Sequence record: MZ234049.1
Direction: 5' to 3' (one strand)
DNA length: 44,293 bases
From: Escherichia phage vB_EcoP-UTI89UKE2
Below, one piece after another: positions 3,677 to 28,840 of this stretch. The translations under genes and the position numbers were made by a program. Each line of letters starts with the position of its first letter. The first letter of the stretch is position 1. Below the pieces are notes generated by a model. That model searched no databases and had not been told where the DNA came from. It was given only the letters and a program-made list of their open reading frames with translations.

Positions 3677-3719
3677 TTAACATAAAAGTGTCTCACATGT
3701 GAGACTTATTTACCGGACA
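3677..3719 (+). promoter_or_regulatory. palindrome GTCTCACATGTGAGAC abutting a variant phage promoter (TATTTACCGGACACTATAGGATAG)
   Basis: 16-bp perfect palindrome at 3679-3694, directly followed by a sequence matching the phage promoter consensus except at 2-3 positions. Confidence 0.5.
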
Positions 3720-3769
3720 CTATAGGATAGCCGTCGGAGACGGGAAAGAAAGGGAAGATAAAGGATATA

Positions 3770-3830
3770 AAGGAAGTAATAGGTATTAAAGGTTATATAG
3801 GTTATCTAGGAATACCTATTACCTTCTTCC
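3770..3830. repeat. AT-rich block with four AGGT motifs at 9-bp spacing inside an inverted repeat (TAATAGGTATT / AATACCTATTA)
   Basis: AGG at about 3780, 3789, 3798 and 3807; flanking arms are reverse complements. Confidence 0.6.
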
Positions 3831-3868
3831 TTCCTCTTATTACCACTTAGAGGAAGGGCAGACCTAGG

Positions 3869-3914
3869 TTGTCTCACATGTGAGACTTCGTATTTACCGG
3901 ACAGTATAGATAAG
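3869..3914 (+). promoter_or_regulatory. second palindrome GTCTCACATGTGAGAC abutting a second variant promoter-like sequence (TATTTACCGGACAGTATAGATAAG)
   Basis: Palindrome at 3871-3886; the promoter-like sequence differs from consensus in the core (CAGTATAGA vs CACTATAGA), so activity is uncertain. Confidence 0.4.
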
Positions 3915-3940
3915 ATTAACTCACTTTTGGAGATTTAACC

Positions 3941-4069
3941 ATGCGTAACTTTGAGAAGATGGCCCGTAAAGCTAACCGTTTTGACATGGAAGAAGGGCAG
4001 AAGAAAGGCAAGAAGCTGAATAAACCTGTTCGTGACCGTGCATCTAAACGCGCTGCGTGGGAGTTCTAA
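3941..4069 (+). CDS. small basic protein (42 aa)
   Basis: ATG at 3941, in-frame TAA at 4067-4069; sits in the short gap before the primase gene. Absent from the ORF track because it is under 60 aa. Confidence 0.4.
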   Translation: MRNFEKMARKANRFDMEEGQKKGKKLNKPVRDRASKRAAWEF

Positions 4070-4072
4070 GTT

Positions 4073-6061
4073 ATGGCTATTATTCAGAATGTACCGTGTC
4101 CTGCCTGTCAAAAGAATGGACATGATATTACTGGCAACCATCTTATGATATTTGAGGATGGCGCTGGTTACTGTAACCGTGGTCACTTCCATGATAACGG
4201 CAAGCCTTATTACCATAAGCCAGAGGGTGGCATCGAGATAACCGAATTACCTATTACTGGCAATATCAAATATACACCTTCTCAGTTTAAAGAGATGGAG
4301 AAGGAAGGGAAGATTAGCGACCCTAAGCTACGCGCCATCGCACTTGGTGGTATGCGTATGAAAGACCGTTGGGAGGTCATGAATGAGCAAGAAAGGGCAG
4401 AACAAGAAGCAGAGTGGAAACTTGATGTTGAATGGTTCCTCACGCTTAAGCGTAAGAATCTTGTTTCCCGACACATTCGCGGCGACATTTGCGCATTGTA
4501 CGATGTACGTGTCGGACACGATGAAGATGGTAGAGTCTCACGGCATTACTATCCACGCTTCGAGAAAGGTGAGCTAGTAGGCGCTAAGTGTCGCACATTA
4601 CCTAAAGACTTTAAGTTTGGTCATTTAGGTAAACTCTTTGGTATGCAAGATCTTTTCGGTATGAATACTTTGTCTCACGTGTTAGACAAGGGAAGACGAA
4701 AGGATTGCTTGCTTATTGTGGGCGGCGAACTGGATGCACTAGCAGCACAGCAAATGCTCCTTGATTCTGCCAAGGGTACTAAGTGGGAAGGCCAGCCTTA
4801 CCATGTATGGTCTGTCAATAAAGGTGAGTCTTGCCTTGAAGAGATAGTACAGAACCGTGAACACATCGCCCAATTTAAGAAGATTATATGGGGTTTTGAT
4901 GGAGATGAGGTAGGGCAGAAGCAGAATCAGCAAGCGGCTCGCCTGTTTCCTGGCAAATCCTATATCCTTGAATACCCTTCTGGTTGCAAAGATGCTAACA
5001 AGGCATTGATGGCTGGCAAGGCTAAAGAGTTTGTTGATGCTTGGTTTAATGCCAAGTCATCTGATGAAGTCTTTGGTAGCCAGATTAAATCTATCGCATC
5101 TCAAAGGGATAAGCTCAAGGCTGCACGTCCAGAGCAAGGGCTATCATGGCCTTGGCCTAAGCTGAACAAGGTAACGCTAGGTATTCGTAAGAACCAGCTT
5201 ATCATTGTAGGTGCAGGTTCTGGTGTAGGTAAGACTGAGTTCCTCCGCGAAGTGGTTAAACATCTCATTGAAGAACACGGTGAATCTGTAGGCATCATTT
5301 CTACAGAAGACCCAATGGTCAAGGTGTCCCGTGCTTTTATCGGCAAGTGGATTGATAAGCGTATTGAGTTACCGCCAACCAACGACCCGAAAGAAGACGG
5401 ATACCGTGAGGTGTTCGACTACACCGAGGAAGAAGCTAACGCTGCCATTGATTATGTAGCTGATACAGGAAAGCTATTTGTGGCTGACCTAGAAGGCGAT
5501 TATTCTATGGAGAAGGTAGAGCAAACTTGCCTAGAGTTTGAGGCTATGGGCATTTCTAATATCATCATTGATAACTTAACGGGGATTAAATTAGATGAGC
5601 GTGCTTTTGGTGGGAAGGTTGGTGCACTTGATGAATGCGTCAAACGAATTGGTACTATCAAAGACCGACATGCGGTTACGATTTTCCTTGTCTCTCACCT
5701 TACACGTCCTCCGGCAAACCGTACCCAACACGAAGAAGGTGGCGAAGTTATCCTTTCTGACTTCCGAGGCTCAGGCGCTATCGGATTCTGGGCATCTTAC
5801 GCCTTGGGGATTGAGCGTAATACAAGAGCTGAAACGCTTGATGAAAGGACTACCACGTACATCTCGTGTGTCAAAGACCGCGATCAAGGTATCTACACTG
5901 GAACCAAGGTCATGCTTAAAGGTGACATTCAGACCGGACGTTTGATGGAACCACAAGCCCGTACTAAGTCATTTGATACAGGTGAAGCAAGGCAGCAAGA
6001 GGTGCCTGATTTACCGGACACTATAGAAGAGACAAACTTTGAAGATGAACAGGAGTTTTAA
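4073..6061 (+). CDS. DNA primase/helicase (T7 gp4-like)
   Basis: N-terminal Cys4 zinc ribbon (CPACQKNGHD...YCNRGH), Walker A GAGSGVGKTEF, and a C-terminal acidic tail ending FEDEQEF as in T7 gp4. Confidence 0.93.
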   Translation: MAIIQNVPCPACQKNGHDITGNHLMIFEDGAGYCNRGHFHDNGKPYYHKPEGGIEITELPITGNIKYTPSQFKEMEKEGKISDPKLRAIALGGMRMKDRWEVMNEQERAEQEAEWKLDVEWFLTLKRKNLVSRHIRGDICALYDVRVGHDEDGRVSRHYYPRFEKGELVGAKCRTLPKDFKFGHLGKLFGMQDLFGMNTLSHVLDKGRRKDCLLIVGGELDALAAQQMLLDSAKGTKWEGQPYHVWSVNKGESCLEEIVQNREHIAQFKKIIWGFDGDEVGQKQNQQAARLFPGKSYILEYPSGCKDANKALMAGKAKEFVDAWFNAKSSDEVFGSQIKSIASQRDKLKAARPEQGLSWPWPKLNKVTLGIRKNQLIIVGAGSGVGKTEFLREVVKHLIEEHGESVGIISTEDPMVKVSRAFIGKWIDKRIELPPTNDPKEDGYREVFDYTEEEANAAIDYVADTGKLFVADLEGDYSMEKVEQTCLEFEAMGISNIIIDNLTGIKLDERAFGGKVGALDECVKRIGTIKDRHAVTIFLVSHLTRPPANRTQHEEGGEVILSDFRGSGAIGFWASYALGIERNTRAETLDERTTTYISCVKDRDQGIYTGTKVMLKGDIQTGRLMEPQARTKSFDTGEARQQEVPDLPDTIEETNFEDEQEF

Positions 6062-6222
6062 TGGAAATTATTAAACCAGTATTGAATATCGGTATTGAGA
6101 TCCTATTCATGCTTGTGATCGCAGATTATGCTGCACGATATGGATTCAAGAAAGCGGTGAAACTTATCGTTGCATCTGGTTTTCTTATGTCAATGTTCTT
6201 TATTGTAACACGCCTTATCTAG
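6061..6222 (+). CDS. small hydrophobic protein (53 aa)
   Basis: ATG overlaps the primase stop (TAATG); one predicted transmembrane helix; TAG at 6220-6222. Confidence 0.4.
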   Translation: MEIIKPVLNIGIEILFMLVIADYAARYGFKKAVKLIVASGFLMSMFFIVTRLI

Positions 6223-6233
6223 TGTATTTATCA

Positions 6234-6267
6234 GGGCTTGTCTCACATGTGAGACAGGCTCTTATTA
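6234..6267 (+). terminator. palindrome hairpin (core TGTCTCACATGTGAGACA, 6239-6256) with GC clamp and U-rich tail
   Basis: 18-bp perfect palindrome extended by GGCT/AGGC and followed by TCTTATT. Confidence 0.45.
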
Positions 6268-6294
6268 AGTACATTAAATAACTGGAGATTGATT

Positions 6295-6978
6295 ATGTAT
6301 AAATTAGTATTGAATGCAGGTGATTATGTTCGTAACATCAATGCAACCTCACGTAGATATCGTTGCCGTGGTACTGTGACTAATGTAAGTGAAAACAGCT
6401 ACTATGTAGAGTACAGTAATGGTATTAGACAGGCTTATCAAAAGGAATCAGCACATAACTACCTTGAGAAGATTGGAGAGGTAAGCAATCAATGTAAGTG
6501 CGTACACGATGAGATTTGCGATAAGTGTGCCCGCCAGATGCATAAAATGCTATTATACCCTCTTCGCTATGGTGCTGGCATTCAAACCTTATCAGAGGCA
6601 TATGGCAAAGGTAAGACTACACTTAATAAAGATCGCCGCAATGTAATCACTGGTAAGACTCAAAGTGAAATGATTAAGCAATGTGGCACTGCACTAGGTG
6701 TTACGCAGTTTAACACTCGTGCTCTTGGTAAATCCACAGGACAAGCTATGGTGAAGATTGGTGAAGCCATGATGCACCCAAATGTACCTGTGCGAATCAT
6801 GGATGTTGACCATGCAATCACAGAACACGGTACACCACGACGTGTAGCTAATAAGCATTTTGCCGACACTATAGAAGGTATTATCCGTAAGCAAGGGTTG
6901 AAAGGTCTTCACCTCTTGAATGGTGAAGAATTACTGTATCTCCCTATTGTTACTGAAGAAACCTACGTGAATATTTAA
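6295..6978 (+). CDS. hypothetical protein (227 aa) with Cys cluster CKCVHDEICDKC
   Basis: ORF with RBS GGAG at 6284-6287 and ATG at 6295. The track start at 6289 is a TTG extension. Confidence 0.7.
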   Translation: MYKLVLNAGDYVRNINATSRRYRCRGTVTNVSENSYYVEYSNGIRQAYQKESAHNYLEKIGEVSNQCKCVHDEICDKCARQMHKMLLYPLRYGAGIQTLSEAYGKGKTTLNKDRRNVITGKTQSEMIKQCGTALGVTQFNTRALGKSTGQAMVKIGEAMMHPNVPVRIMDVDHAITEHGTPRRVANKHFADTIEGIIRKQGLKGLHLLNGEELLYLPIVTEETYVNI

Positions 6979-6988
6979 GGAGTTAATC

Positions 6989-7075
6989 ATGACTAAAGTT
7001 CTAATTTATAAACAACGAGGTCTTAAGGCTTATGCTATTGTAGCACCAAATGGTGTTAAAAAAAGTAAGTTGTAA
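6989..7075 (+). CDS. small ORF (28 aa)
   Basis: AGGAG RBS then ATG at 6989; TAA at 7073-7075. Confidence 0.25.
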   Translation: MTKVLIYKQRGLKAYAIVAPNGVKKSKL

Positions 7076-7100
7076 GCCTCTTGCAATAAAAGGTGCAGGT

Positions 7101-7205
7101 ATGTCTGCTAACTTACAATTGCAACTTTTTGGCAATTTCACAGAAGCGCAATTCCGCAATAAACATGAAGTTATTGGTTCTTTTATGGTGAAACATGCAG
7201 AATAA
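7101..7205 (+). CDS. small ORF (34 aa)
   Basis: AGGTG RBS at 7091-7095, ATG at 7101, TAA at 7203-7205. Confidence 0.25.
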   Translation: MSANLQLQLFGNFTEAQFRNKHEVIGSFMVKHAE

Positions 7206-7404
7206 ACACAGCCTTAAGATGTTTGATGGTCACGAAGACCTGCAAGCACACATCACTAACCAAGCCTTCCTGTTTGCACAGTTAACTATGGCTGAAGCAA
7301 AGAAGAATAGTCTGACACGTGAGCAGGTTATCAAGGAGGCAACTTGGGAGCCACACCAAGGCAAATACATGGGCCAGAGATTAACTGTAACACGCAGTCG
7401 ATAA
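7195..7404 (+). CDS. hypothetical protein (69 aa; alternative start 7219)
   Basis: ORF ending just before a palindrome hairpin; start ambiguous. Confidence 0.45.
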   Translation: MQNKHSLKMFDGHEDLQAHITNQAFLFAQLTMAEAKKNSLTREQVIKEATWEPHQGKYMGQRLTVTRSR

Positions 7405-7410
7405 GTAAAG

Positions 7411-7440
7411 GGTTGTCTCACACATGAGACAGCCTTTCAT
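7411..7440 (+). terminator. palindrome hairpin variant TGTCTCA-CACA-TGAGACA with GC clamp and U-rich tail
   Basis: Arms TGTCTCA/TGAGACA at 7414-7431, flanked by GG/CC and followed by TTTCAT. Confidence 0.4.
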
Positions 7441-7461
7441 CATATTGATTGGAGGTGCATT

Positions 7462-7569
7462 ATGTCACGTGATTATGATTCTGATTGGGACTACTATGAC
7501 TCAATGAATCCAAAACCTGAACATTCAGATGATTATTATTGGGTGGAGGAAATGTATGAAGACTGTTGA
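7462..7569 (+). CDS. small acidic, aromatic-rich protein (35 aa)
   Basis: RBS GGAGG at 7451-7455, ATG at 7462; ends 14 nt inside the DNA polymerase gene. Confidence 0.35.
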   Translation: MSRDYDSDWDYYDSMNPKPEHSDDYYWVEEMYEDC

Positions 7570-10102
7570 TTGGAAGAAGGAGGCAGAAGGCCGTATCCTC
7601 GTGATGGATGCGGAAGCTAAAGGACTCCTTGACGCTATCCGCTATGGTCATCGTGAAGATGTGCATATCATTTGCTGCATGGACTTGCTTACTACCGAGG
7701 AGTTTCTCTTCTTTGACCCGTATGAGATGCGTGACCCTGAAGCAAGAGAACACCTGAAGGAATGGGAAGGTCATCAAGATGGTGACTTGGTTGATGGTGT
7801 TAACTTCCTGAAGCACTGTGAAGCTATTGTGTCGCAGAACTTCCTAGGGTACGACGGCCTTCTATTTGAGAAAGCATTCCCTGATATCTGGAAAGGCTTT
7901 AACTATACCGAGAGACGCGGCAAGGGCAGACTCCGCGCTGACCTGTGTCCTGTACGCGTCATGGATACGCTGGTCATGAGTCGCCTGTTAAACCCCGATA
8001 GACGCCTCCCTCCGCAAGCATACGCCAAAGGCATGGGTAACGTCGCCCCTCACTCAATTGAGGCGCACGGCATCCGTATAGGCCGTTATAAGCCGGAGAA
8101 CGAGGATTGGTCTAAGCTAACTGACCACATGGTTCACCGTGTACGGGAGGACGTGGCGATAGGCCGTGACTTGTTCCTCTGGCTCTTTAACGGGGAATGG
8201 ATGGAGCACAAACGCCGTGGCGTGAATAAACGCACTGGCCTAGGTATTGAGACAGCCTTCCACATGGAGTCCATTGTGGCGCTGGAGATGAGCCGTCAGG
8301 CCGAGCGTGGATTCCGTCTGGATATAGATAAAGCATTAGCACGATGCGAGGAATTGGACGCTAAGATTGATGAGACAGTCGCAGCGTTCCGTCCGCACAT
8401 GCCTATGCGTATCAAGTCTAAACCTTTTAAACCGGAAGAAAAGAATGAAGTATGCCAACGCGCAAATGAGTATGGAGCTAGCAACAATATACCTACTGTC
8501 CTTGACCCCTCTCACTTTCTTCACGCAGAGAGACGAGGAGATCGCAAGACAGTATGGAGTGTCACTACTAAGTCTGGTGATTGGTCGGCTAGCGTCAAGA
8601 AAGACTTTCCTCACCTTAGAGGAAACCGTAATGACACGCCAAGCATCAAGTGGATTGGCGCTTACTCGCCTGTTACTTTCGAAGAGATTCCCTTGGGTAA
8701 CAGGGATACAGTTAAGCAAGTGCTCTATGATTATGGATGGAAAGGTGTTGAATTTAACGATACCGAGCAAGCGCATCTCGATGAGCATGGCGTATTACCC
8801 AAGCCTTGGAGTGGGAAGATAAATGAAAAGTCCCTTACTTTATGGCAAGAGAGAGCCGCACGTGAAGGTAAAACAGTCCCTGATTGGTGCTTGGGTATCG
8901 CTGCATGGTACATACTCGTATCCCGTCGTGGTCAGATCCTCAACCGTGGTGACGTTGAAGCCTTCGACCAGAAGGGGGTATGGCCTTCGCAAGCTGGTAT
9001 ACGAAAGTGTCGCGGCCTTGTACCTGTAGCATTTAACAAGGAGTTAGGAATCAATGCGCAGCAATACTACGAAAGGTACGGATGCTGGCCTACGTCAGAC
9101 AAGGATGACGGAGAATGGCGTGTGCCAGCTATTGCTATTAGTATTGGAACTTCTACGTTCCGTATGCGTCATCGTAACGTGGTTAATATTCCTGCCCGTG
9201 GTTTGTATCCTTTACGTGATTTATTCATAGCCGGTAAAGGTAAGCTAATCCTTGGTTGTGATGGTGCTGGTCTTGAACTACGTGTACTGTCTCACTTCAT
9301 GAATGACCCTGAATATCAAGATATTGTACTGCATGGTGACATTCACACCCATAATCAAATGAAGGCTGGTCTTCCTAAGCGTGACATGGCGAAGACATTT
9401 ATATATGCCTTCCTATATGGATCTGGTATAGCTAACCTTGCAGCAGTATGTGGTGTTACTGAGGAAGAAATGGAGGAAGTTGTGGCAAGATTTGAGGTTG
9501 AACTACCATCTCTTGCACGCCTTCGTGAGAATGTTATCGCACAAGGTAACAAGTTTGGCTACCTACAAGCACCTGATGGTCATTGGGGTCGCATCCGTAT
9601 GTCTGGTGGTGAACTTAAAGAGCACACTATGCTTAACGTACTACTCCAGATGACTGGTTCTCTGTGTATGAAATACGCATTGGTCAGAGCGTTTGCAGTG
9701 ATGCGCAAGGAAGGTGTGGCCTTAGATAGCATGGGAAACCCTTGCGGTATAGCTAACGTGCACGATGAAATCCAGATGGAAGTCCCTGAAGATGAGGTCT
9801 TGTATCTCAACTATGACTTGCCTTTCACCTTAGAAGGGTTCGAAACAGAGAAGGCTGCTGTGAAAGCAGTGTTCGATGCAGAGGAGAAACGTGTTCATGT
9901 GGATTCTGAAGGACGTATGTGGTCTGCTGCAAATCTCGTTAGCGTTGATGCTGATGCTGGTGTACTTCATTGCCAGCGTCGTTATCACCGTGCAGGGCAT
10001 ATCATTGCCGATGCAATGACTTGGGCTGGTCATTATTTGAAGATGCGTTGTCCGATGGCAGGTGAGTATAAGATTGGTGCAAGCTGGAAGGAAACACACT
10101 GA
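7556..10102 (+). CDS. DNA polymerase (family A, T7 gp5-like, with 3'-5' exonuclease domain)
   Basis: Motifs VMDAEAKGL (exo), GCDGAGLELRVLSHF (motif A), KTFIYAFLYGSG (motif B) and NVHDEIQMEV (motif C). RBS GGAGG at 7546-7550. The track start at 7529 is a non-ATG extension. Confidence 0.93.
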   Translation: MKTVDWKKEAEGRILVMDAEAKGLLDAIRYGHREDVHIICCMDLLTTEEFLFFDPYEMRDPEAREHLKEWEGHQDGDLVDGVNFLKHCEAIVSQNFLGYDGLLFEKAFPDIWKGFNYTERRGKGRLRADLCPVRVMDTLVMSRLLNPDRRLPPQAYAKGMGNVAPHSIEAHGIRIGRYKPENEDWSKLTDHMVHRVREDVAIGRDLFLWLFNGEWMEHKRRGVNKRTGLGIETAFHMESIVALEMSRQAERGFRLDIDKALARCEELDAKIDETVAAFRPHMPMRIKSKPFKPEEKNEVCQRANEYGASNNIPTVLDPSHFLHAERRGDRKTVWSVTTKSGDWSASVKKDFPHLRGNRNDTPSIKWIGAYSPVTFEEIPLGNRDTVKQVLYDYGWKGVEFNDTEQAHLDEHGVLPKPWSGKINEKSLTLWQERAAREGKTVPDWCLGIAAWYILVSRRGQILNRGDVEAFDQKGVWPSQAGIRKCRGLVPVAFNKELGINAQQYYERYGCWPTSDKDDGEWRVPAIAISIGTSTFRMRHRNVVNIPARGLYPLRDLFIAGKGKLILGCDGAGLELRVLSHFMNDPEYQDIVLHGDIHTHNQMKAGLPKRDMAKTFIYAFLYGSGIANLAAVCGVTEEEMEEVVARFEVELPSLARLRENVIAQGNKFGYLQAPDGHWGRIRMSGGELKEHTMLNVLLQMTGSLCMKYALVRAFAVMRKEGVALDSMGNPCGIANVHDEIQMEVPEDEVLYLNYDLPFTLEGFETEKAAVKAVFDAEEKRVHVDSEGRMWSAANLVSVDADAGVLHCQRRYHRAGHIIADAMTWAGHYLKMRCPMAGEYKIGASWKETH

Positions 10103-10218
10103 TGGACAGGTTTGATGTTGTTTGCCTATTCTCTATCTTCTTTCTTATATTCCTTATGCTTGCTTGCTATGGAAGTATGCGATTAGATATACCTGATGAA
10201 GAGGAGGGTTACGATTGA
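10102..10218 (+). CDS. small hydrophobic peptide (38 aa) ending EEEGYD
   Basis: ATG overlaps the DNAP stop (TGATG); one hydrophobic segment. Confidence 0.3.
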   Translation: MDRFDVVCLFSIFFLIFLMLACYGSMRLDIPDEEEGYD

Positions 10219-10316
10219 TGCAAACTGCTTTTATCATTCTTGGGATCATATTATTTATGGTAGTATTCTGGGCTTTCTCTGGCATTGACCCAGATTGTGA
10301 TGGTAACTACGATTGA
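10218..10316 (+). CDS. small hydrophobic peptide (32 aa) ending DCDGNYD
   Basis: ATG overlaps the preceding stop; same architecture as the previous peptide. Confidence 0.3.
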   Translation: MQTAFIILGIILFMVVFWAFSGIDPDCDGNYD

Positions 10317-10384
10317 GTTATACTCAAGGTCACTTACGAGTGGCCTTTATGAATAACTTATTCCTACTTATTTTGTCTAACATG

Positions 10385-10406
10385 ATTTACTGGACACTAT
10401 AGAAGG
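10385..10406 (+). promoter_or_regulatory. phage RNAP promoter (ATTTACTGGACACTATAGAAGG)
   Basis: Exact match to the consensus recurring in this genome; SP6-type core CACTATAGAAG. Confidence 0.8.
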
Positions 10407-10460
10407 AAAGCCTAGGTAATCTAGGTTTATAAGGTAGTATAGGTAATTAAGTAAATATAG
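10405..10460. repeat. phased (T)AGGT repeat array downstream of a promoter
   Basis: TAGGT/AAGGT/TAGGA motifs at about 9-bp spacing (CCTAGGTAATCTAGGTTTATAAGGTAGTATAGGTAA...). Confidence 0.6.
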
Positions 10461-10471
10461 GAGATATAAAT

Positions 10472-12354: not shown

Positions 12355-12355
12355 A

Positions 12356-12371
12356 GTCTCACGTGTGAGAC
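12356..12371. promoter_or_regulatory. palindrome variant GTCTCAC-GT-GTGAGAC
   Basis: Same arms as the other palindrome copies; sits between a gene end and a promoter. Confidence 0.5.
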
Positions 12372-12386
12372 AAATCGGTGTCCGGT

Positions 12387-12409
12387 ATTTACTGGACACT
12401 ATAGAAGAG
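12387..12409 (+). promoter_or_regulatory. phage RNAP promoter (ATTTACTGGACACTATAGAAGAG)
   Basis: Exact consensus. Confidence 0.8.
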
Positions 12410-21909: not shown

Positions 21910-21916
21910 TACCTAT

Positions 21917-21952: not shown

Positions 21953-21964
21953 TTAGGAGGATTC

Positions 21965-22702
21965 ATGCCTGTTATTAAACAACAAAGTTACACTGGCTAT
22001 ACTGTCTCAGATGTAGCCTTTCAAGTGATTGATAGTAAGCTGGAGGCTGTTAACCTTTGTATGCGAGCCATTGGTCGTGAGGGTGTGGATTCTCTCGACT
22101 CAGGCGACCTTGATGCTGAAGATGCTAGCAAAATGATTGATATCGTCTCCCAACGTTTCCAATACAACAAAGGAGGTGGTTGGTGGTTTAACCGTGAGCC
22201 TAACTGGCAGCTTGCACCAGATACTAATGGTGAGGTTAATCTACCTAATAACTGCCTAGCTGTATTGCAGTGCTACGCATTGGGTGAGAAGAAAGTTCCT
22301 ATGACTATGCGTGCAGGTAAGCTTTACTCCACATGGAGTCACACCTTTGATATGCGCAAGCATGTTAATGCTAATGGCATGATTCGTCTTACCTTACTTA
22401 CCTTACTACCCTACGAGCATCTACCTACAAGTGTAATGCAGGCTATTGCCTATCAAGCTGCTGTAGAGTTTATTGTGTCTAAGGATGCAGATCAGACTAA
22501 GCTAGCCACTGCGCAGCAGATAGCCACTCAGCTTCTTATGGATGTACAATCTGAGCAAATGTCACAGAAGCGATTAAACATGCTGGTACATAACCCCACT
22601 CAGCGACAGTTTGGCATCATGGCTGGTGGCTCTCAGAATGTACCTGCTTACTCTCATTCACCTTATGGTAGTTGGGCGCTCCGTCCGTGGGAGGATCGTT
22701 AA
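21965..22702 (+). CDS. tail tubular protein A (gp11-like)
   Basis: RBS AGGAGG at 21955-21960, ATG at 21965; position between capsid and gp12-like gene. Confidence 0.75.
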   Translation: MPVIKQQSYTGYTVSDVAFQVIDSKLEAVNLCMRAIGREGVDSLDSGDLDAEDASKMIDIVSQRFQYNKGGGWWFNREPNWQLAPDTNGEVNLPNNCLAVLQCYALGEKKVPMTMRAGKLYSTWSHTFDMRKHVNANGMIRLTLLTLLPYEHLPTSVMQAIAYQAAVEFIVSKDADQTKLATAQQIATQLLMDVQSEQMSQKRLNMLVHNPTQRQFGIMAGGSQNVPAYSHSPYGSWALRPWEDR

Positions 22703-25104
22703 TGGAAGTACAAGGTTCATTAGGTAGACAAATCCAAGGCATTAGCCAGCAGCCGCCAGCGGTACGCTTGGATGGTCAGTGCACAGCCATGATTAATATG
22801 ATACCTGATGTAGTGAATGGTACTCAATCACGCATGGGTACAACTCATATTGCAAAGATACTTGATGCGGGGACTGATGACATGGCTACTCATCATTATC
22901 GCAGAGGTGATGGTGATGAAGAGTATTTCTTCACGTTGAAGAAAGGACAAGTTCCTGAGATATTTGATAAGTATGGGCGCAAATGTAATGTGACTTCACA
23001 AGATGCACCTATGGCTTACTTGGCTGAGGTGATAAACCCAAGAGAAGATGTACAATTCATGACGATAGCTGATGTTACTTTCATGCTTAATCGTAGGAAA
23101 GTAGTTAAAGCTAGTAACAGGAAGTCACCTAAAGTTGGAAACAAAGCCATTGTGTTTTGTGCGTATGGTCAATATGGTACATCTTATTCCATTGTAATTA
23201 ATGGGACCAACGCTGCTAGTTTTAAAACACCGGATGGTGGAAGTGCAGACCATGTTGAACAAATTCGAACTGAACGTATCACTTCTGAATTATACTCTAA
23301 GTTGCAGCAATGGAGCGGTGTGAGTGACTATGAAATACAAAGAGACGGTACTAGTATATTTATCGAGAGACGGGATGGTGCTAGCTTTACAATAACAACC
23401 ACCGATGGTGCAAAAGGTAAGGACTTAGTGGCTATCAAGAATAAAGTTAGCTCTACTGACCTACTCCCGTCTCGTGCGCCTGCGGGTTATAAAGTGCAAG
23501 TGTGGCCTACTGGCAGCAAACCTGAGTCTCGTTACTGGCTGCAAGCTGAGCCTAAAGAGGGAAACCTTGTATCTTGGAAAGAAACAATAGCTGCCGATGT
23601 ATTACTTGGGTTTGATAAAGGCACAATGCCTTATATCATTGAACGTACAGGTATCGTAGACGGCATAGCTCAATTCAAGATAAGACAAGGCGATTGGGAA
23701 GATCGTAAAGTAGGGGATGACTTGACTAACCCTATGCCCTCTTTTATTGATGAGGAAGTACCCCAGACAATAGGTGGAATGTTCATGGTGCAGAACCGCC
23801 TATGCTTTACAGCAGGTGAAGCGGTTATTGCTTCTCGTACATCATACTTCTTCGATTTCTTTCGTTATACGGTTATCTCTGCATTGGCAACTGACCCATT
23901 TGATATTTTCTCAGATGCTAGTGAAGTCTACCAGCTAAAACATGCAGTGACCTTAGATGGCGCTACCGTGTTGTTCTCTGATAAGTCACAATTCATACTG
24001 CCAGGCGATAAGCCTTTAGAGAAGTCAAATGCATTGCTTAAGCCTGTTACAACATTTGAAGTGAACAATAAAGTGAAGCCAGTAGTAACTGGTGAATCGG
24101 TAATGTTTGCCACTAATGATGGTTCTTACTCTGGTGTACGAGAGTTCTATACAGACTCTTATAGTGACACTAAGAAGGCACAAGCAATCACAAGTCATGT
24201 GAATAAACTCATCGAAGGTAACATTACCAACATGGCAGCAAGCACCAATGTCAACAGGTTACTTGTCACTACCGATAAGTATCGTAACATAATCTACTGC
24301 TACGATTGGTTATGGCAAGGAACAGACCGTGTACAATCAGCATGGCATGTGTGGAAGTGGCCTATAGGTACAAAGGTGCGAGGTATGTTTTATTCTGGCG
24401 AATTACTTTACCTGCTCCTTGAGAGAGGCAATGGTGTCTATCTGGAGAAGACGGATATGGGTGATGCATTAACCTATGGTTTAAATGATCGCATCCGAAT
24501 GGATAGACAGGCAGAGTTAATCTTCCAGCATTTCGAAGCAGAAGATGAATGGGTATCTGAACCGCTACCTTGGGTTCCTACTAACCCAGAACTTTTAGAT
24601 TGCATCTTAATCGAGGGTTGGGATTCATATATTGGTGGTTCTTTCCTATTCAAATACAACCCCGGTGATAACACCTTGTCTACAACCTTTGATATGCATG
24701 ATGATAGCCACGTAAAAGCGAAGGTTATTGTTGGTCAGATTTACCCTCAAGAGTTTGAACCAACACCTGTAGTTATCAGAGATAGGCAAGACCGTGTATC
24801 CTATATTGATGTACCTGTTGTGGGATTAGTTCACCTTAATCTTGATATGTATCCTGATTTCTCCGTGGAGGTTAAGAATGTGAAGAGTGGTAAAGTACGC
24901 AGGGTGCTAGCGTCAAACCGTATAGGTGGTGCTCTCAACAATACAGTAGGTTATGTTGAACCAAGAGAAGGTGTCTTCAGATTCCCACTGAGAGCTAAGA
25001 GTACGGATGCTGTTTATCGTATTATTGTAGAATCACCTCACACATTCCAGCTTCGTGATATTGAGTGGGAAGGGAGCTACAATCCAACCAAAAGGAGGGT
25101 CTAA
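22702..25104 (+). CDS. tail tubular protein B (gp12-like)
   Basis: N-terminal IQGISQQPP matches the T7 gp12 GISQQPD motif; ATG overlaps the upstream stop (TAATG). Confidence 0.88.
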   Translation: MEVQGSLGRQIQGISQQPPAVRLDGQCTAMINMIPDVVNGTQSRMGTTHIAKILDAGTDDMATHHYRRGDGDEEYFFTLKKGQVPEIFDKYGRKCNVTSQDAPMAYLAEVINPREDVQFMTIADVTFMLNRRKVVKASNRKSPKVGNKAIVFCAYGQYGTSYSIVINGTNAASFKTPDGGSADHVEQIRTERITSELYSKLQQWSGVSDYEIQRDGTSIFIERRDGASFTITTTDGAKGKDLVAIKNKVSSTDLLPSRAPAGYKVQVWPTGSKPESRYWLQAEPKEGNLVSWKETIAADVLLGFDKGTMPYIIERTGIVDGIAQFKIRQGDWEDRKVGDDLTNPMPSFIDEEVPQTIGGMFMVQNRLCFTAGEAVIASRTSYFFDFFRYTVISALATDPFDIFSDASEVYQLKHAVTLDGATVLFSDKSQFILPGDKPLEKSNALLKPVTTFEVNNKVKPVVTGESVMFATNDGSYSGVREFYTDSYSDTKKAQAITSHVNKLIEGNITNMAASTNVNRLLVTTDKYRNIIYCYDWLWQGTDRVQSAWHVWKWPIGTKVRGMFYSGELLYLLLERGNGVYLEKTDMGDALTYGLNDRIRMDRQAELIFQHFEAEDEWVSEPLPWVPTNPELLDCILIEGWDSYIGGSFLFKYNPGDNTLSTTFDMHDDSHVKAKVIVGQIYPQEFEPTPVVIRDRQDRVSYIDVPVVGLVHLNLDMYPDFSVEVKNVKSGKVRRVLASNRIGGALNNTVGYVEPREGVFRFPLRAKSTDAVYRIIVESPHTFQLRDIEWEGSYNPTKRRV

Positions 25105-25850
25105 TGGCTATAGGTTCAGCCGTTATGGCTGGTATGTCTTCTATTGGTAGTATGTTTGCAGGTAGCGGTGCAGCGGCCGCTGCTGGGGGTACTGCCGCAG
25201 CAGCAGGAGGGACAGCCGCCGCAGGTGGCGGAGGTTTGCTTGGCTCCCTTGGTAGTTTCTTAGGAGGTTCTTCTGCTGGCTTCTCTAATGCAGGACTGCT
25301 TAGTGCAGGTATGCAAGGTCTTGGGCTTCTAGGCAATCTTTTTGGTGGAAGTGATGAAGCCAAAGCTATGAAGAAAGCTCAGGAGGAGCAATGGCGGCAG
25401 CAGTTAATTGCTACACAAGAAGCATATAAGACAGTAGCAGATGCAGAACGCTCTGCTGCTAAACAGTATCATGCGGATGCAATAAGCAATCAGGCTTCAC
25501 TGCTACAGCAAAGAGCGCAGGTTGCACTACTTGCAGGTGCAACTGGCACTGGTGGTAACTCTGTATCTTCTATGCTGAATGACTTAGCAGCAGAGGGCGG
25601 GAGGAACCAGAGTACAATTATTGATAACTATGAGAATCAGAAGATTAACTTCACCAATCAGCTTAAGTCTATCCAGCGAGGTGGACAGATGCAGATGCGT
25701 GAGTTTAAGAAGCCTTCTGCCGTGAGCACCTTGGTGCAAGGTATACCGAGTCTGGCATCTGCCTATGTAACAGGTAGTAAGTCCGGCATGGCTTTAGGTA
25801 AAGCTTTAACTGATTCTCGTACATATTCATCTGGAACAAGAGGTATTTAA
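25104..25850 (+). CDS. internal virion protein (Gly/Ala-rich N-terminus)
   Basis: ATG overlaps the gp12 stop; low-complexity GGTAAAAGG repeats. Confidence 0.65.
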   Translation: MAIGSAVMAGMSSIGSMFAGSGAAAAAGGTAAAAGGTAAAGGGGLLGSLGSFLGGSSAGFSNAGLLSAGMQGLGLLGNLFGGSDEAKAMKKAQEEQWRQQLIATQEAYKTVADAERSAAKQYHADAISNQASLLQQRAQVALLAGATGTGGNSVSSMLNDLAAEGGRNQSTIIDNYENQKINFTNQLKSIQRGGQMQMREFKKPSAVSTLVQGIPSLASAYVTGSKSGMALGKALTDSRTYSSGTRGI

Positions 25851-28798
25851 TGGCAATTGAGCGACAAGCAGTACAAGGTCTGCCACAAGTGCAGGCCACT
25901 TCTCCTAATGTCATGACCTTTGCACCTCAACAAGTGGGAGGTGTGGAGGCTGGCGTGGCTTCTACCTCCGGTAGTAGATTTATCGAAGACCTTATTCGTG
26001 CAGCAAGCAGCGTGGCTGATGTTACCACTGGTATCCTTAATCAGAAGATTGAGGAAGATAAGGTTATTCAAATGGAGCGGGCATATAATGGATTAATGCC
26101 TTCTGAGGATGCAACTCGTGGTGGCGCTCGTGCTAACATGCTTGTCAAAGCTCAACTGCTAGCTAATGATGAAGCAGCACGAATGAAAGACATGGCTACT
26201 CGTTTCCAAGGAACGGATGATGAGTGGACACAACTTATGGTTGACTCTCGTAATGAGATGCAGAATAAGCTGTTCCAGCAATACCCTGAGTTGCAAGGTG
26301 ACAAAGATACTATGCGTATGGTCACTAATGTCTTCCAAGAACAGCAGCCTCAGATTTGGGCTACACGAACCCAGCATAAACTTGACCGTGAACAAGCAGA
26401 CCGTGAGGATACCTTTGACGGGCGAGTGGCTTCTACTTGGGATTCTAATATTGACCCTGAAGCCTCTGGCTATGCTTTACAGGAACGAATCCGCGAAGGT
26501 CTTACTCAAGGATTACTACCGGAACAGATGCACAAGAAGTTAGTCCAGCGAGCAATTTCACTTGCACAAGGCGGTGATGTTAGCATGGCTGAAGCCCTGA
26601 AGTATGTGAAGGACGATAAGGGTGTTTCTGTTTATGCTAAGAATCCACAGCTTATCACAGCCATCACTAGTGGTAATGCAGTTTGGGCTAGGAATAATGT
26701 AGCTGATGTAACTCGTATGTCTTTCGAAGTTAAAGAATCCTACCTTGCAGGTGATTTAACTGATGAAGAACTGTTGGAACGAGCACAGCACATTAATAAT
26801 CTGACAGGTAACTCTGTCTTCTCTAATCCAGAGCTAGAGGCACTGATGCGCCAACGGGCTAAGCAGAATGCAGAGCTAGGTGCAATGCAGGATATGCGAC
26901 GTGAGCTTTACTCCGACCGCCTGACTGGCTTCCAAGGTAAGACTGATAAAGAGAAGAAGGCTTACATTGATGTTATCAAACAGGATAGCCAACTTTATGC
27001 AGACCAGCAAATCAAACAACGTGGCTTGGACCCTTACAGTCAAGAGGCTGAAGCTATTCGTGGTGCAGTGGAAGTGCAGCGCCTGCAATTCATGAACTCC
27101 AAAGGCTTAGTGGATGATACCTTTGAGTCTCGTATCAAAGCCATGGAATCTATGCTATCGCCTGAGCACTTTGCCAAGGGCGAACCACAGGAGTTGATGA
27201 CTATTCGCCAGTTGTGGGAACAGTTGCCAGAAGAGAGCCGAGGTGTCTTTGGTGACACGGTGAATGGCTACATGGATAACTACAACACTGCACTACAAAT
27301 GGGAGAGACACCTTTGCAGGCTGCAAGGTTTGCGCGTGAAGCACAGCAGAAATTCTCTCGTACTGAGAAGGAAACCAAGAAGTTCAACTCAGCTATTGGA
27401 GATGCACTGGATGAGGTATCTGGTGCTGGCTGGTTTGATGGTAAAACCGAAGTGTCAGACTTAGGTAAAGCTATTGCGGAAGAAGAGTTACGAGCTAAGG
27501 CCAATATGTTGTGGTCTAGTGGTATGCGTAACATGGATTCTATCAAGAAGGCTTTAATTACTTGGGGCAATAAACGCTACACTCAAACAGAGGATGCAAA
27601 GACTTCCGGTGGCTATTTCATTAAAGGTGATTACACTTCTGCATCTGATATGCTTATGTCAGTTGGGAAAGGCGTAAACCCTACCGATGTACCTCTGGCG
27701 CTTGGTAGGTATGTAGAAACACAGATGCCAGAATTGAAGAAGGAGCTTCAAGAGTGGGAAACTAAAGATGATATATACATTGATTACAATGAACAGAAAG
27801 GAACTTTTGTGATTCGTGCTGGTGCAGCAGGTCGACCTCTTTCTGGAGTAATCCCTGTAACCTCTTTAGATACCACTTCACTACTAGATTCTGCCTATCA
27901 GAAGAAAGTAGAGGAACGAGATAAAGGCGAGTATGTTCACCCGTATCGTACAGATATTGGTGCACAAGAGCCTATGCCAGCTAAACCAACTGCCAAAGAT
28001 ATTGGTAAATTTGGACTAGCTAACTTCCTCATGTCTTCTGCTTTTGCTTCTGGTGAGAATCTGCCTTCTAACTTCGAGATTAACTATCGAGGTAATATGC
28101 AACAATTCTATGACAAGCTAGCTATGGATGAGAATAAAGATAAAGTTGGCTTTAATAAGGCAACTGGAACCTTTACTCCATATAAAGACGCTCGCGGTGA
28201 GTCTATCGGTTACGGTCATTTCTTAACGGAAGAAGAGAAGCGAAACGGGTATATTAAGATTGGTGATGAACTAGTTCCCTATCGAGGGTCTATGTCTCAG
28301 CTTACAGAGAGCAAGGCTCGCGCTCTTATGGAGCAAGATGCTAAGAAGCATGTGCCTCCTACTCGTGACTGGAAGATTCCGTTTGACCAGATGCATCCTG
28401 CACAGCAACGTGGCTTGATGGATTTAACCTACAATTTAGGTAAAGGTGGAATCCAGAACTCACCGCGTGCTCTTGCTGCATTCAAAGCTGGTAAGCTTAC
28501 GGAAGGCTTTATCGAAATGCTGGGCACTGCATCAAGTGAAGGTAAGCGTATTCCTGGCCTACTGAAGCGACGCGCTGAGGCATACAATATGGCATCTGCT
28601 GGTGGTGTGCCTAAGATTACCGAAGTGGAGACTCGTGAAGATGGCTCCATGTGGGTTAGGTTTGGTGGACCTATGCCAGCAGGTTCTGTCTCGGCATGGA
28701 CTCATAAACGTATTGGCGCGGATGGTTGGTATCAGGTTTATGAGGCTGCACCTACCAAGTTAGCTAAAGGTTCTAAGGTAGGTAAAGTTAAGTTGTAG
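25850..28798 (+). CDS. internal virion (ejection) protein with C-terminal T4-lysozyme-like muramidase domain
   Basis: 982 aa; residues encoded around 28150-28600 carry MDENKDK ... YKDARGESIGYGHFLTE ... MDLTYNLG ... LLKRRAEAYNM, resembling the T4 lysozyme fold with Glu/Asp catalytic positions retained. Confidence 0.8.
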   Translation: MAIERQAVQGLPQVQATSPNVMTFAPQQVGGVEAGVASTSGSRFIEDLIRAASSVADVTTGILNQKIEEDKVIQMERAYNGLMPSEDATRGGARANMLVKAQLLANDEAARMKDMATRFQGTDDEWTQLMVDSRNEMQNKLFQQYPELQGDKDTMRMVTNVFQEQQPQIWATRTQHKLDREQADREDTFDGRVASTWDSNIDPEASGYALQERIREGLTQGLLPEQMHKKLVQRAISLAQGGDVSMAEALKYVKDDKGVSVYAKNPQLITAITSGNAVWARNNVADVTRMSFEVKESYLAGDLTDEELLERAQHINNLTGNSVFSNPELEALMRQRAKQNAELGAMQDMRRELYSDRLTGFQGKTDKEKKAYIDVIKQDSQLYADQQIKQRGLDPYSQEAEAIRGAVEVQRLQFMNSKGLVDDTFESRIKAMESMLSPEHFAKGEPQELMTIRQLWEQLPEESRGVFGDTVNGYMDNYNTALQMGETPLQAARFAREAQQKFSRTEKETKKFNSAIGDALDEVSGAGWFDGKTEVSDLGKAIAEEELRAKANMLWSSGMRNMDSIKKALITWGNKRYTQTEDAKTSGGYFIKGDYTSASDMLMSVGKGVNPTDVPLALGRYVETQMPELKKELQEWETKDDIYIDYNEQKGTFVIRAGAAGRPLSGVIPVTSLDTTSLLDSAYQKKVEERDKGEYVHPYRTDIGAQEPMPAKPTAKDIGKFGLANFLMSSAFASGENLPSNFEINYRGNMQQFYDKLAMDENKDKVGFNKATGTFTPYKDARGESIGYGHFLTEEEKRNGYIKIGDELVPYRGSMSQLTESKARALMEQDAKKHVPPTRDWKIPFDQMHPAQQRGLMDLTYNLGKGGIQNSPRALAAFKAGKLTEGFIEMLGTASSEGKRIPGLLKRRAEAYNMASAGGVPKITEVETREDGSMWVRFGGPMPAGSVSAWTHKRIGADGWYQVYEAAPTKLAKGSKVGKVKL

Positions 28799-28810
28799 TA
28801 CCTAACTCAA

Positions 28811-28840
28811 GGCTTGTCTCACATGTGAGACAGGTCTTTA
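28811..28840 (+). terminator. palindrome hairpin (core TGTCTCACATGTGAGACA, 28815-28832) with GC clamp and U-rich tail
   Basis: Same 18-bp palindrome as at 6239, between two internal virion protein genes. Confidence 0.45.

What the first reader, a model, noticed from the sequence alone, without database searches (positions are those of the whole stretch)
3677..28840. Conserved palindrome TGTCTCA-N4-TGAGACA at six loci
The 18-bp perfect palindrome TGTCTCACATGTGAGACA occurs at 6239-6256 and 28815-28832, 16-17 bp of it at 3679-3694 and 3871-3886, and arm-conserved variants at 7414-7431 and 12356-12371; a half-site is at 41746. Chance recurrence is negligible. Intrinsic terminators conserve structure, not sequence, so an added sequence-specific role is likely: a binding site for a dimeric protein, an RNase III-type site, or an RNAP pause/termination signal. 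Three copies have GC clamps and U-rich tails after gene ends; two sit directly upstream of variant promoters after the RNAP gene.
Basis: seen in the sequence. Interest (0 to 1): 0.72.

Follow-up and report, generated by a model that had tools for sequence, protein, structure and literature searches.

The report
Phage operator palindrome and its reader protein
The repeated 18-base palindrome is most likely the DNA docking site of an unannotated early phage protein (gp6), and three of its eight copies also cap ordinary T7-type RNase III RNA-processing hairpins, giving a testable new regulator and operator pair in the SP6/K1E phage group.

Summary
The window is Escherichia phage vB_EcoP-UTI89UKE3, a K1E-like member of Vectrevirus. 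The palindrome is real. There are eight copies, not six (0.03 expected by chance), and one reported coordinate is off by 10 nt.

The motif is conserved across the subfamily Molineuxvirinae as two 9-nt half-sites, TGTC-Y-M-AC-R. They sit at syntenic places: the left end, upstream of the first phage promoters, inside the primase-helicase gene and in intergenic hairpins.

Two layers emerge.

1. **RNase III hairpins.** Copies 6239, 7414 and 28815 cap ~57-63-nt two-helix hairpins. These carry the flank pattern found at the T7 sites I recall as RNase III sites (ACUCAAGG...CCUUUAU|GAU) and show strong covariation. They are T7-type RNase III sites.

2. **A protein-read DNA site.** The gene at window 1-924 (gp6, "hypothetical") is predicted to have a KorB/ParB-like helix-turn-helix. 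Residue 66 covaries with base pair 6 of each half-site: K/R goes with C:G and N/H with A:T. This holds across about 26 genomes with at least 4 independent switches, one of them in a relative ~87% identical in DNA. Distant gp6 homologues sit beside or contain the same 18-mer in unrelated genomes.

The termination or pause reading is not supported. What gp6 binding achieves is inferred, not shown. A KorB-like role in promoter or origin control is my best guess.

The parts
1..924 (+). gp6 gene (307 aa), the proposed reader of the palindrome. Layout: N-terminal KorB/ParB-like HTH domain (aa ~10-122, recognition helix 61-74 with K66), disordered acidic linker, coiled coil 205-247, and a J-like C-domain 248-307.
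3689..3706 (.). Site S1, TGTCTCACATGTGAGACT. It lies 1 nt upstream of the first phage promoter (3708-3730) and after the early terminator.
3870..3887 (.). Site S2, TGTCTCACATGTGAGACT. It lies 4 nt upstream of the second, variant phage promoter (3892-3914).
4671..4688 (.). Site S3, inside the primase-helicase gene, encoding L-S-H-V-L-D. Synonymous positions are frozen, and the H/N codon tracks the motif variant.
6220..6276 (+). Class A two-helix RNA hairpin (T7-type RNase III site) between gp9.5 and gp10. Palindrome S4 (6239-6256) is its apex.
7395..7451 (+). Class A two-helix RNA hairpin (T7-type RNase III site) upstream of the DNA polymerase operon. Palindrome S5 (7414-7431) is its apex.
12355..12372 (.). 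Site S6, AGTCTCACGTGTGAGACA. It starts right after the gp17 stop codon, 14 nt upstream of the promoter at 12387-12409.
28793..28855 (+). Class A two-helix RNA hairpin (T7-type RNase III site, AACUCAAGG...GGUCUUUAUGAU) between gp35 and gp36. Palindrome S7 (28815-28832) is its apex.
41738..41755 (.). Site S8, AGTCTAACATGTGAGACA. It lies ~325 bp right of the terminal repeat and 33 bp upstream of a sigma-70-like early promoter (41789-41817).

Best explanation
The palindrome is a double-stranded DNA operator made of two 9-nt half-sites (TGTC-Y-M-AC-R), separated by 0 or 1 bp.

**Reader.** It is read by the early phage protein gp6 (window 1-924). gp6 probably dimerises through its coiled coil. It contacts each half-site with a KorB/ParB-type helix-turn-helix, and residue 66 of the recognition helix reads base pair 6.

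**Placement.**
- Four copies lie directly upstream of promoters: one host-type early promoter and three phage-RNAP promoters.
- One copy lies inside the primase-helicase gene.
- Three copies are lodged in the apical stem of T7-type RNase III processing hairpins. That part of the RNA structure is free to vary, so a DNA palindrome can sit there without disturbing mRNA processing.

**Status of each step.**
- Shown: the recurrence, the conservation, the RNA structure with covariation, and the protein-to-site covariation.
- Inferred: physical binding.
- Inferred more weakly: the consequence of binding. I favour a KorB-like global control of early and first middle promoters and/or of the origin-like region after the RNAP gene.
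For: **Recurrence and conservation**
- There are 8 copies against 0.03 expected.
- Most of the nine other Molineuxvirinae genomes compared carry 8-9 copies at syntenic places.

**Half-site symmetry**
- All 98 two-nt centres are R-Y. All seven 3-nt centres are A-N-T. That is a symmetric 9-nt half-site, which a hairpin loop has no need for.

**In-gene copy**
- Third-codon-position entropy is 0.40 bits in the motif against 1.20 in the flanks.
- The H/N codon follows the motif variant.

**Covariation of gp6 residue 66 with base pair 6**
- N/H genomes have 100% A at position 6. K/R genomes have mostly C.
- An NJ tree built without the recognition helix needs at least 4 independent switches.
- L190 is ~87% identical to the window in DNA, has N66, and all six of its sites are CCAAC/GTTGG.
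- K/R pairing with G and N pairing with A fits ordinary major-groove contacts.

**Unrelated contigs found by the 18-mer alone**
- L163 carries a 4-site array beside a gp6-like ORF and a ParA-like ORF. Pairwise BLASTP to gp6 gives E = 4e-6.
- In L160 the site lies inside the gp6-like gene.
- L037, L040 and L045 show the same layout with weaker protein matches.

**Structure**
- The AF2 N-domain has pLDDT 78-95, with helix 46-57, a turn, then helix 61-74.
- Pfam DUF3102 is hit below threshold by 13 of 56 orthologues and 14 of 40 distant homologues.

**RNase III layer**
- In alignment A1, 98.1% of cells pair against 34-43% in the slid controls.
- 13 of 23 pairs carry double changes, and the covariation score is 0.585 against at most 0.134.
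- The flanks match T7 R0.3, R0.5, R1.1, R4.7 and R18.5.
Against: - There is no binding experiment.
- No curated family passes threshold.
- The centre is 3 nt at five PM85 sites and two L187 sites. A rigid dimer would not tolerate that, so it needs loosely coupled half-site binding.
- K-type genomes keep some A-type half-sites or whole sites: K1-5 at S5 and ACG-C91 at S7.
- L186 has R66 but an AGTCTACC-GT-GGTAGACA site.
- The arms also stay complementary, so an RNA-level constraint cannot be separated from DNA symmetry. T.G hybrids slightly outnumber C.A hybrids, 10 against 6.
- The biological consequence of binding is unknown.
Confidence: 0.7

Rival explanations
1. A purely RNA element. All eight copies act only as RNA hairpins, as RNase III sites, 3'-end stabilisers or processing signals. 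Their shared sequence would reflect RNase III determinants or common descent by duplication, with no DNA-binding protein involved.
For: - All copies lie on the transcribed strand.
- Three are demonstrably parts of T7-type RNase III hairpins.
- The arms always stay complementary.
- The centre length varies between 2 and 3 nt, as a loop could.
- G.U cells far outnumber A.C cells in alignment A1 (my tally of the per-pair tables: ~68 against ~4).
Against: - The five T7 hairpins aligned here have unrelated apical stems, so the conserved apex is not a shared feature of these hairpins.
- Five copies form only 6-8 bp helices with no second helix. E. coli RNase III substrates typically need about two helical turns (PMC1540722).
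- The loop is constrained symmetrically to R-Y.
- Genome-wide variant switches track one residue of gp6.
- The same 18-mer occurs as a parS-like array next to a gp6 homologue in an actinobacterial contig.
Confidence: 0.15
2. A transcription termination or pause signal for the phage or host RNA polymerase.
For: - S1 and S2 are flagged as weak terminator-like sites, with a 6-bp stem followed by the promoter's AT-rich start.
- The literature counts 'seven SP6 RNAP terminators' (PMC11347151). Some of those could be these hairpins.
Against: - The early terminator is a distinct hairpin at 3623-3646.
- The characterised SP6 t5 terminator has a different sequence.
- The class A hairpins lack the T run the scan requires.
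- S6 and S8 have no U tract.
- Copies inside the primase-helicase gene, and inside the RNAP gene in other genera, would abort essential mRNAs.
- ATCTGTT is not associated with the sites.
Confidence: 0.05
3. A recombination linker or mobile regulatory cassette. On this view the conserved hairpins persist and homogenise because they mediate module shuffling between co-infecting phages, with no dedicated reader.
For: - Flanks diverge exactly at the hairpin boundary. At S4 the upstream sequence differs between K1E and K1-5 while the hairpin is identical.
- Single sites flip variant between near-identical genomes.
Against: - It does not explain the frozen synonymous sites in genes.
- It does not explain the R-Y centre rule.
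- It does not explain the covariation with gp6 residue 66 across at least 4 switches.
- It could be a by-product of conserved sites rather than their purpose.
Confidence: 0.07

Closest known systems
Bacteriophage T7 RNase III processing sites (R0.3, R0.5, R1.1, R4.7, R18.5)
   Same: Window hairpins 6220-6276, 7395-7451 and 28793-28855 share these features:
- a two-helix architecture with an asymmetric internal loop;
- the conserved flanks (A)CUCAAGG ... CCUUUAUGAU;
- a similar lower stem (AGTG..ATAC / ..CAYT.);
- an intercistronic position about 20 nt before the next ribosome-binding site.

T7 also places such hairpins next to promoters (R1.1 with phi1.1B, R4.7 with phi4.7).
   Different: In T7 the apical stem differs from site to site. 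Here the top 8 bp and the loop are the same 18-mer at every site and across genera. The same 18-mer also occurs without any RNase III context. Cleavage has not been shown here.
KorB and its OB operators on IncP-1 plasmid RK2
   Same: - Both read about 8-12 copies of a short palindrome scattered over one small genome.
- In both, some copies abut promoters, some lie at a distance, and some are far from any promoter (RK2 details from my own knowledge).
- One copy here lies upstream of the promoter region that drives the regulator's own transcription unit.
   Different: - gp6 has no ParB/Srx CTPase N-domain and no ParA partner in the phage.
- It carries a coiled coil and a J-like C-domain instead.
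- The replicon is a lytic phage, and some target promoters are for a single-subunit RNAP.
- Repression is not shown.
ParB-parS and SopB centromeres, including the dispersed centromere sites of linear plasmid-prophage N15
   Same: - All use palindromic sites of 16-18 bp. The half-site TGTCTCAC resembles the parS half-site TGTTTCAC (from memory).
- Sites can lie inside the binding protein's own gene in distant homologues (L160, L037, L040, L045), as the first parS found lies in spo0J (from memory).
- L163 has a par-locus layout: ParA-like ORF, gp6-like ORF, then the site array.
   Different: - The window has no ParA and no plasmid lifestyle.
- There are two extra central base pairs relative to parS.
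- gp6 shows no detectable sequence similarity to ParB.
KfrA-type plasmid proteins (N-terminal HTH plus a long coiled coil)
   Same: Size and layout are similar: about 300 aa, an N-terminal site-specific DNA-binding domain, an alanine- and glutamate-rich helical tail, and a site near the protein's own promoter (from my own knowledge). One distant homologue gives a weak KfrA_N hit (E = 0.0087).
   Different: gp6 itself gives no significant KfrA_N match. The C-terminal J-like domain is not a KfrA feature.

Membership tests
T7-type RNase III processing site | About two helical turns of dsRNA interrupted by an internal loop that restricts cleavage to one bond | tested here: met
   Sites 6239, 7414 and 28815 have a lower helix of ~10 bp, a 2x3-nt internal loop and a 13-14 bp upper helix. 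In alignment A1, 98.1% of cells pair and 13 of 23 pairs carry compensatory changes. The length rule comes from PMC1540722.
T7-type RNase III processing site | Conserved flanks shared with the T7 RNase III sites (ACUCAAGG ... CCUUUAU|GAU) | tested here: met
   Alignment A3 compares five T7 sites with window and SP6 hairpins, and the T7 regions were folded. Site 28815 matches almost exactly. Sites 6239 and 7414 are variants (AUCAGGG...CUCUUAUUAAG and GUAAAGGG...CCUUUCAUCAU). The T7 site coordinates are from my memory of Dunn and Studier 1983.
T7-type RNase III processing site | The same architecture at the other five copies (3689, 3870, 4671, 12355, 41738) | tested here: not met
   These form only 6-8 bp helices, with the outermost pair broken in four of them. 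They have no second helix and no CAAGG/CCUUUAUGA flanks.
T7-type RNase III processing site | Cleavage by host RNase III in vivo or in vitro | not testable with these tools
   This needs 5'/3'-end mapping in rnc+ and rnc- hosts, or cleavage of in vitro transcripts.
ParB/KorB-type operator-regulator pair | A cognate protein with a ParB-fold HTH DNA-binding domain | tested here: inconclusive
   [not shown]
ParB/KorB-type operator-regulator pair | Specific pairing of protein and site (co-variation or co-occurrence) | tested here: met
   Residue 66 tracks base pair 6 across about 26 genomes with at least 4 independent switches. The 18-mer co-occurs with gp6 homologues in the unrelated contigs L163 and L160, and more weakly in L037, L040 and L045.
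ParB/KorB-type operator-regulator pair | ParB/Srx-like N-terminal CTPase domain and a ParA partner | tested here: not met
   gp6 and 55 orthologues give no ParBc or ParB-N Pfam hit. None of the 10 window proteins scanned matched a ParA-type family, and the record annotates none. gp6 therefore works like, but is not a member of, canonical ParB.
ParB/KorB-type operator-regulator pair | Demonstrated DNA binding and a regulatory effect | not testable with these tools
   This needs EMSA, ChIP and reporter or phage genetics.
Intrinsic (class I) terminator | A stable GC-rich hairpin immediately followed by a U run | tested here: not met
   Only S1 and S2 are flagged. Both are weak (6 pairs), and their T-rich tail is the promoter's ATTTA. 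The class A hairpins are not flagged. The real early terminator is at 3623-3646.
Class II T7-RNAP pause/termination signal | ATCTGTT in the non-template strand | tested here: not met
   There are six ATCTGTT in the window against 8.3 expected, and none lies at a palindrome. The single + strand copy is at 41414, near the terminal-repeat end.

The most novel reading that the evidence does not exclude
gp6 is a KorB-like global organiser of SP6/K1E-type phages. It is made early from host-RNAP transcripts and binds about eight operators. Through them it would time the hand-over from host to phage RNA polymerase and/or license the origin-like two-promoter region after the RNAP gene. Three operators are deliberately embedded in RNase III hairpins, so DNA occupancy and mRNA processing are coupled at the same nucleotides. 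That would be the first sequence-specific DNA-binding regulator described for a T7-supergroup lytic phage, and it carries a J-like domain that may recruit a host chaperone.
Probability: 0.3. Interest if true: 0.82.

Novelty: new variant of a known kind. Interest (0 to 1): 0.68.

Why it matters
To my knowledge, the T7 supergroup is taught as needing no sequence-specific DNA-binding regulators beyond its RNA polymerase. A conserved early protein with its own eight-site operator set would add a missing control layer to the SP6/K1E phages. These phages supply SP6 RNA polymerase and several therapy candidates.

It would give a function to a universally conserved "hypothetical" gene next to the RNAP gene. 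It would explain why two essential proteins carry an S-(N/H)-V-L-D peptide dictated by DNA rather than by protein needs. It also offers a natural specificity code (K/R with G, N with A) that can be tested with one point mutation.

The RNase III layer shows that T7-type processing sites are shared by a subfamily long regarded as estranged from T7.

Tried and rejected
- **Rfam scan of the window.** Nothing relevant.
- **Full-text searches for the 18-mer and its variants.** No paper. The SP6 and K1-5 genome papers (Dobbins 2004, Scholl 2004) are not held, so I cannot exclude that they mention these hairpins.
- **Pfam and PHROGs on ten unknown early and middle proteins.** No DNA-binding annotation.
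- **Partition-column screen.** It flagged gp35 and gp36 strongly. I judged this a long-branch or module-swap artefact, because phD2B scored as high in gp35. It also flagged gp6 K66, which held up.
- **The 3-nt centre in PM85.** I first took it as evidence against any dsDNA reader. I revised this when the R..Y rule showed independent 9-nt half-sites and gp6 turned out to have a long flexible linker before its coiled coil.
- **Strand asymmetry.** SP6's T.G arrangement suggested RNA only. Across 106 sites the bias is small, 10 T.G against 6 C.A.
- **Ideas considered from memory and dropped for lack of fit.** These were CRP, LexA, matS, SlmA, FabR and LacI-like sites, primase recognition (GTC), half-promoter mimicry, and a single-strand promoter hairpin as in N4 or M13.
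- **SP6 terminator t5 (PMC11347151 supplement).** It is a different sequence.
- **Homologue search with the Bailinhaonella protein.** It returned only itself.


Full report
**Identity of the window.** The window is 100% identical over the tested 5 kb to Escherichia phage vB_EcoP-UTI89UKE3 (MZ234050.1). This is a K1E-like Vectrevirus in Autographiviridae, subfamily Molineuxvirinae. The sequence is a circular permutation of the virion genome. The K1-5 left end maps to about 41150, and the K1-5 terminal repeat is 234 bp. All genes run on the + strand. The RNA polymerase gene is 988-3615.

**The observation.** TGTCTCACATGTGAGACA with up to 3 mismatches occurs 8 times against 0.03 expected. The sites are:

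| Site | Coordinates |
|---|---|
| S1 | 3689-3706 |
| S2 | 3870-3887 |
| S3 | 4671-4688 |
| S4 | 6239-6256 |
| S5 | 7414-7431 |
| S6 | 12355-12372 |
| S7 | 28815-28832 |
| S8 | 41738-41755 |

The 'half-site' is a nearly full site. The copy inside the primase-helicase gene was missed.

**Three contexts.**
- *Class A (S4, S5, S7).* Each site sits in a small intergenic region and has complementary flanks.
- *Class B (S1, S2, S6, S8).* These form only a 6-7 bp stem, with the outermost pair broken. S1, S2 and S6 lie 1, 4 and 14 nt upstream of phage promoters. S8 lies 33 bp upstream of a sigma-70-like early promoter.
- *Class C (S3).* This copy is inside a gene.

**Conservation.** I compared K1-5, K1E, SP6, Klebsiella K1-ULIP33 and Kp7, Lelliottia phD2B, Proteus PM85, Pectobacterium PP1 and Erwinia phiEa100. 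Most carry 8-9 copies at syntenic positions. Those positions are:
- the left end;
- after the RNAP gene, upstream of the first promoter or promoters;
- inside the helicase gene;
- after the helicase gene;
- before the DNA polymerase gene;
- before the gene-18 promoter;
- between the two large internal virion protein genes.

In several genera there are also copies inside the RNAP, kinase or ligase genes.

The general form is TGTC[C/T][A/C]AC-RY-GT[T/G][G/A]GACA. Three variants occur:
- CCAAC/GTTGG in most genera;
- CTCAC/GTGAG in Vectrevirus and the Erwinia phages;
- CTAAC/GTTGG in SP6.

PM85 has a 3-nt centre (ACT or AGT) at five sites. Across 106 oriented sites, every 2-nt centre is R-Y and every 3-nt centre is A-N-T. 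The unit is therefore a 9-nt half-site, TGTCYMACR, on each strand.

**RNA layer.** Class A sites fold into ~57-63-nt hairpins: a lower helix of ~10 bp, an internal loop (5' UC, 3' UAU or CAU) and an upper helix of 13-14 bp capped by the palindrome.

I aligned 28 distinct sequences drawn from the three paralogous sites in many genomes.
- 98.1% of cells pair, against 34-43% when the partners are slid.
- 13 of 23 pairs carry compensatory double changes.
- The covariation score is 0.585, against at most 0.134 in the controls.
- By my tally of the per-pair tables, G.U cells (~68) far outnumber A.C cells (~4), so the folded strand is the mRNA-sense strand.

I then folded the T7 genome around the RNase III sites as I remember them from Dunn and Studier 1983. 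The result is the same architecture and nearly the same flanks: ACUCAAGG[variable stem]CCUUUAU|GAU. In a direct alignment, window 28815 reads AACUCAAGGCU[palindrome]GGUCUUUAUGAUAGG, and even the lower-stem sequences resemble T7 R18.5.

E. coli RNase III substrates typically have two helical turns. Internal loops restrict cleavage to one bond, which leaves a protective 3' hairpin (PMC1540722). I conclude that S4, S5 and S7 are T7-type RNase III sites. Cleavage itself is not shown.

**Why that is not the whole answer.**
- T7's apical stems differ from site to site, so RNase III does not demand this sequence.
- Five copies lack the second helix.
- The loop obeys a symmetric rule.
- The in-gene copy S3 keeps third-codon positions frozen: entropy is 0.40 bits against 1.20 in the flanks across 23 diverged sequences. 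Val is always GTG and Asp always GAC. The His/Asn codon follows the local motif variant.
- Whole genomes switch variant in concert.

A column screen of conserved proteins picked out gp6 residue 66. It asked which residues separate CTCAC-type from CCAAC-type genomes. The answer was K in the first group, N in the second and H in SP6.

An independent route led to the same protein. A scan of IMG/VR for the 18-mer alone found an actinobacterial contig, L163, from Bailinhaonella thermotolerans. It carries four tandem TGTCTCACGCGTGAGACA copies beside a ParA-like ORF and a 334-aa ORF. That ORF aligns with gp6 residues 9-73 at 33% identity, pairwise E = 4e-6, and has R at the equivalent position.

A profile search of all fetched loci found further gp6-like ORFs that contain the 18-mer inside their own gene: L160 (E = 3e-21), and more weakly L037, L040 and L045.

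**Testing the rule.** I predicted that K/R would go with C:G and N/H with A:T at position 6, then fetched contigs for orthologues chosen by residue 66 alone.

| Orthologue | Residue 66 | Sites found |
|---|---|---|
| P0150 | K | CTCAC-type |
| P0164 | K | CTCAC-type |
| P0128 | R | TGTCCCAC-N3-GTGGGACA |
| P0130 | N | CTAAC/GTTAG |
| P0135 | N | CCAAC/GTTGG |
| P0175 (locus L190) | N | all six sites CCAAC/GTTGG, including the in-gene one |

P0175 sits on a Vectrevirus backbone ~87% identical in DNA to the window.

Over 25 genomes, N/H genomes have only A at position 6 and K/R genomes mostly C. An NJ tree built without the helix needs at least 4 switches.

There are exceptions. P0138 has R66 with other helix changes, and its site is AGTCTACCGTGGTAGACA. 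A few A-type sites persist in K-type genomes.

**What gp6 looks like.** Every database record calls it hypothetical and it has no Pfam domain.

The AlphaFold2 model, built on 56 sequences, gives this layout:
- a confident N-domain (residues ~10-122, pLDDT 78-95) with helix 46-57, a turn, then helix 61-74;
- a disordered acidic linker (126-204);
- a coiled coil (205-247);
- a conserved C-domain (248-307).

Structure comparisons:
- The C-domain matches J-domains.
- Foldseek gives no significant hit but lists VirB and KorB.
- Sequence profiles find nothing among solved structures.

Family-level results:
- Sub-threshold DUF3102 hits occur in 13 of 56 orthologues and 14 of 40 distant homologues.
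- DnaJ hits occur in 8 of 40, without an HPD motif.
- The family is small: 98 representative clusters among 1.84 billion proteins.

**Model.** gp6 is an early protein. It binds the 18-bp operators as a loosely coupled dimer.
- *Shown:* site recurrence and conservation, the RNA structure with covariation, and the protein-to-site covariation and co-occurrence.
- *Inferred:* binding to duplex DNA.
- *Inferred weakly:* the consequence of binding.

Four sites abut promoters, including the early promoter region upstream of gp6's own transcription unit. Sites cluster between the RNAP and DNA polymerase genes, where T7 has its primary origin with two promoters (from my own knowledge). I therefore favour a KorB-like global control of promoter use and/or origin function.

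The apical position in RNase III hairpins is best explained by economy. It is the only part of these tight intergenic regions where an 18-bp palindrome is harmless. Where no such space exists, the site is written into codons.

**Not supported.** The termination or pause reading fails for these reasons:
- The early terminator is a separate hairpin.
- SP6 t5 has a different sequence.
- ATCTGTT is unrelated to the sites.

**Novelty.** T7-type RNase III sites are textbook. I cannot check whether Scholl 2004 or Dobbins 2004 already noted such hairpins in SP6 and K1-5, because neither paper is held. I found no trace of the gp6-palindrome pairing in the searchable literature or in annotations.

Noticed in passing
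window 12377-12400: The inverted repeat GGTGTCCGGT-ATTT-ACTGGACACT pairs positions -13..-4 of the phage promoter at 12387 with an upstream complement. The arms covary with promoter type in SP6 (GTGTC/GACAC), PP1 (GCCC/GGGC), phD2B (GCCCC/GGGGC) and PM85 (GGTGGTCT/AGACCAC). So a promoter-sequestering hairpin is conserved next to site S6.
   Followed up: partly
[not shown]
   Followed up: partly
L163 2060-2160 (IMGVR_UViG_2861773553_000003, Bailinhaonella thermotolerans): Four tandem copies of TGTCTCACGCGTGAGACA lie beside a gp6-like ORF and a ParA-like ORF. This is a par-locus layout using the same 18-mer in an unrelated high-GC genome. L177 (a 129-kb contig) has three copies of TGTCTCACATGTGAGACA with extended arms and no gp6-like ORF in the fetched 9.6 kb.
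   Followed up: partly
window 41414-41420: This is the only + strand ATCTGTT (the T7-RNAP class II pause/termination motif) in the window. It lies at about the inner end of the terminal-repeat region, reminiscent of the T7 concatemer-junction pause site.
   Followed up: no
window 3623-3646: A strong intrinsic terminator (10-bp stem followed by TTTTCTTT) sits directly after the RNAP gene. It is the likely early (host RNAP) terminator and is separate from palindrome S1, which lies 43 nt downstream.
   Followed up: partly
window 25850-32171: The two large internal virion proteins (gp35 and gp36) are only 37-42% identical to those of SP6 and K1-ULIP33, while most other proteins are 80-90% identical. 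This indicates a swapped module, bounded on its inner junction by hairpin S7.
   Followed up: no
L005 ~665-680 and L004 ~525-540: K1E and SP6 carry TGTGACATGTATCACA, a match to the CRP consensus TGTGA-N6-TCACA, about 15 nt to the right of the left-end palindrome. The window lacks it.
   Followed up: no
L010 5621, L007 4900, L011 5799, L184 11480, L185 12379, L188 12676, L189 12354: Many genera carry an extra copy inside the RNA polymerase gene, encoding V-S-(N/H)-V-L-D. It tracks the genome's variant, as the helicase copy does. The Vectrevirus genomes, SP6 and K1-ULIP33 have no such copy.
   Followed up: partly
sites S4, S5 and S7 in L099, L003, L106, L027 and L029: At single sites in near-identical genomes, the core flips between CTCAC/GTGAG and CCAAC/GTTGG while the flanks stay unchanged. 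Upstream flanks also diverge exactly at the hairpin boundary. Both point to short-patch exchange or module shuffling at these elements.
   Followed up: partly
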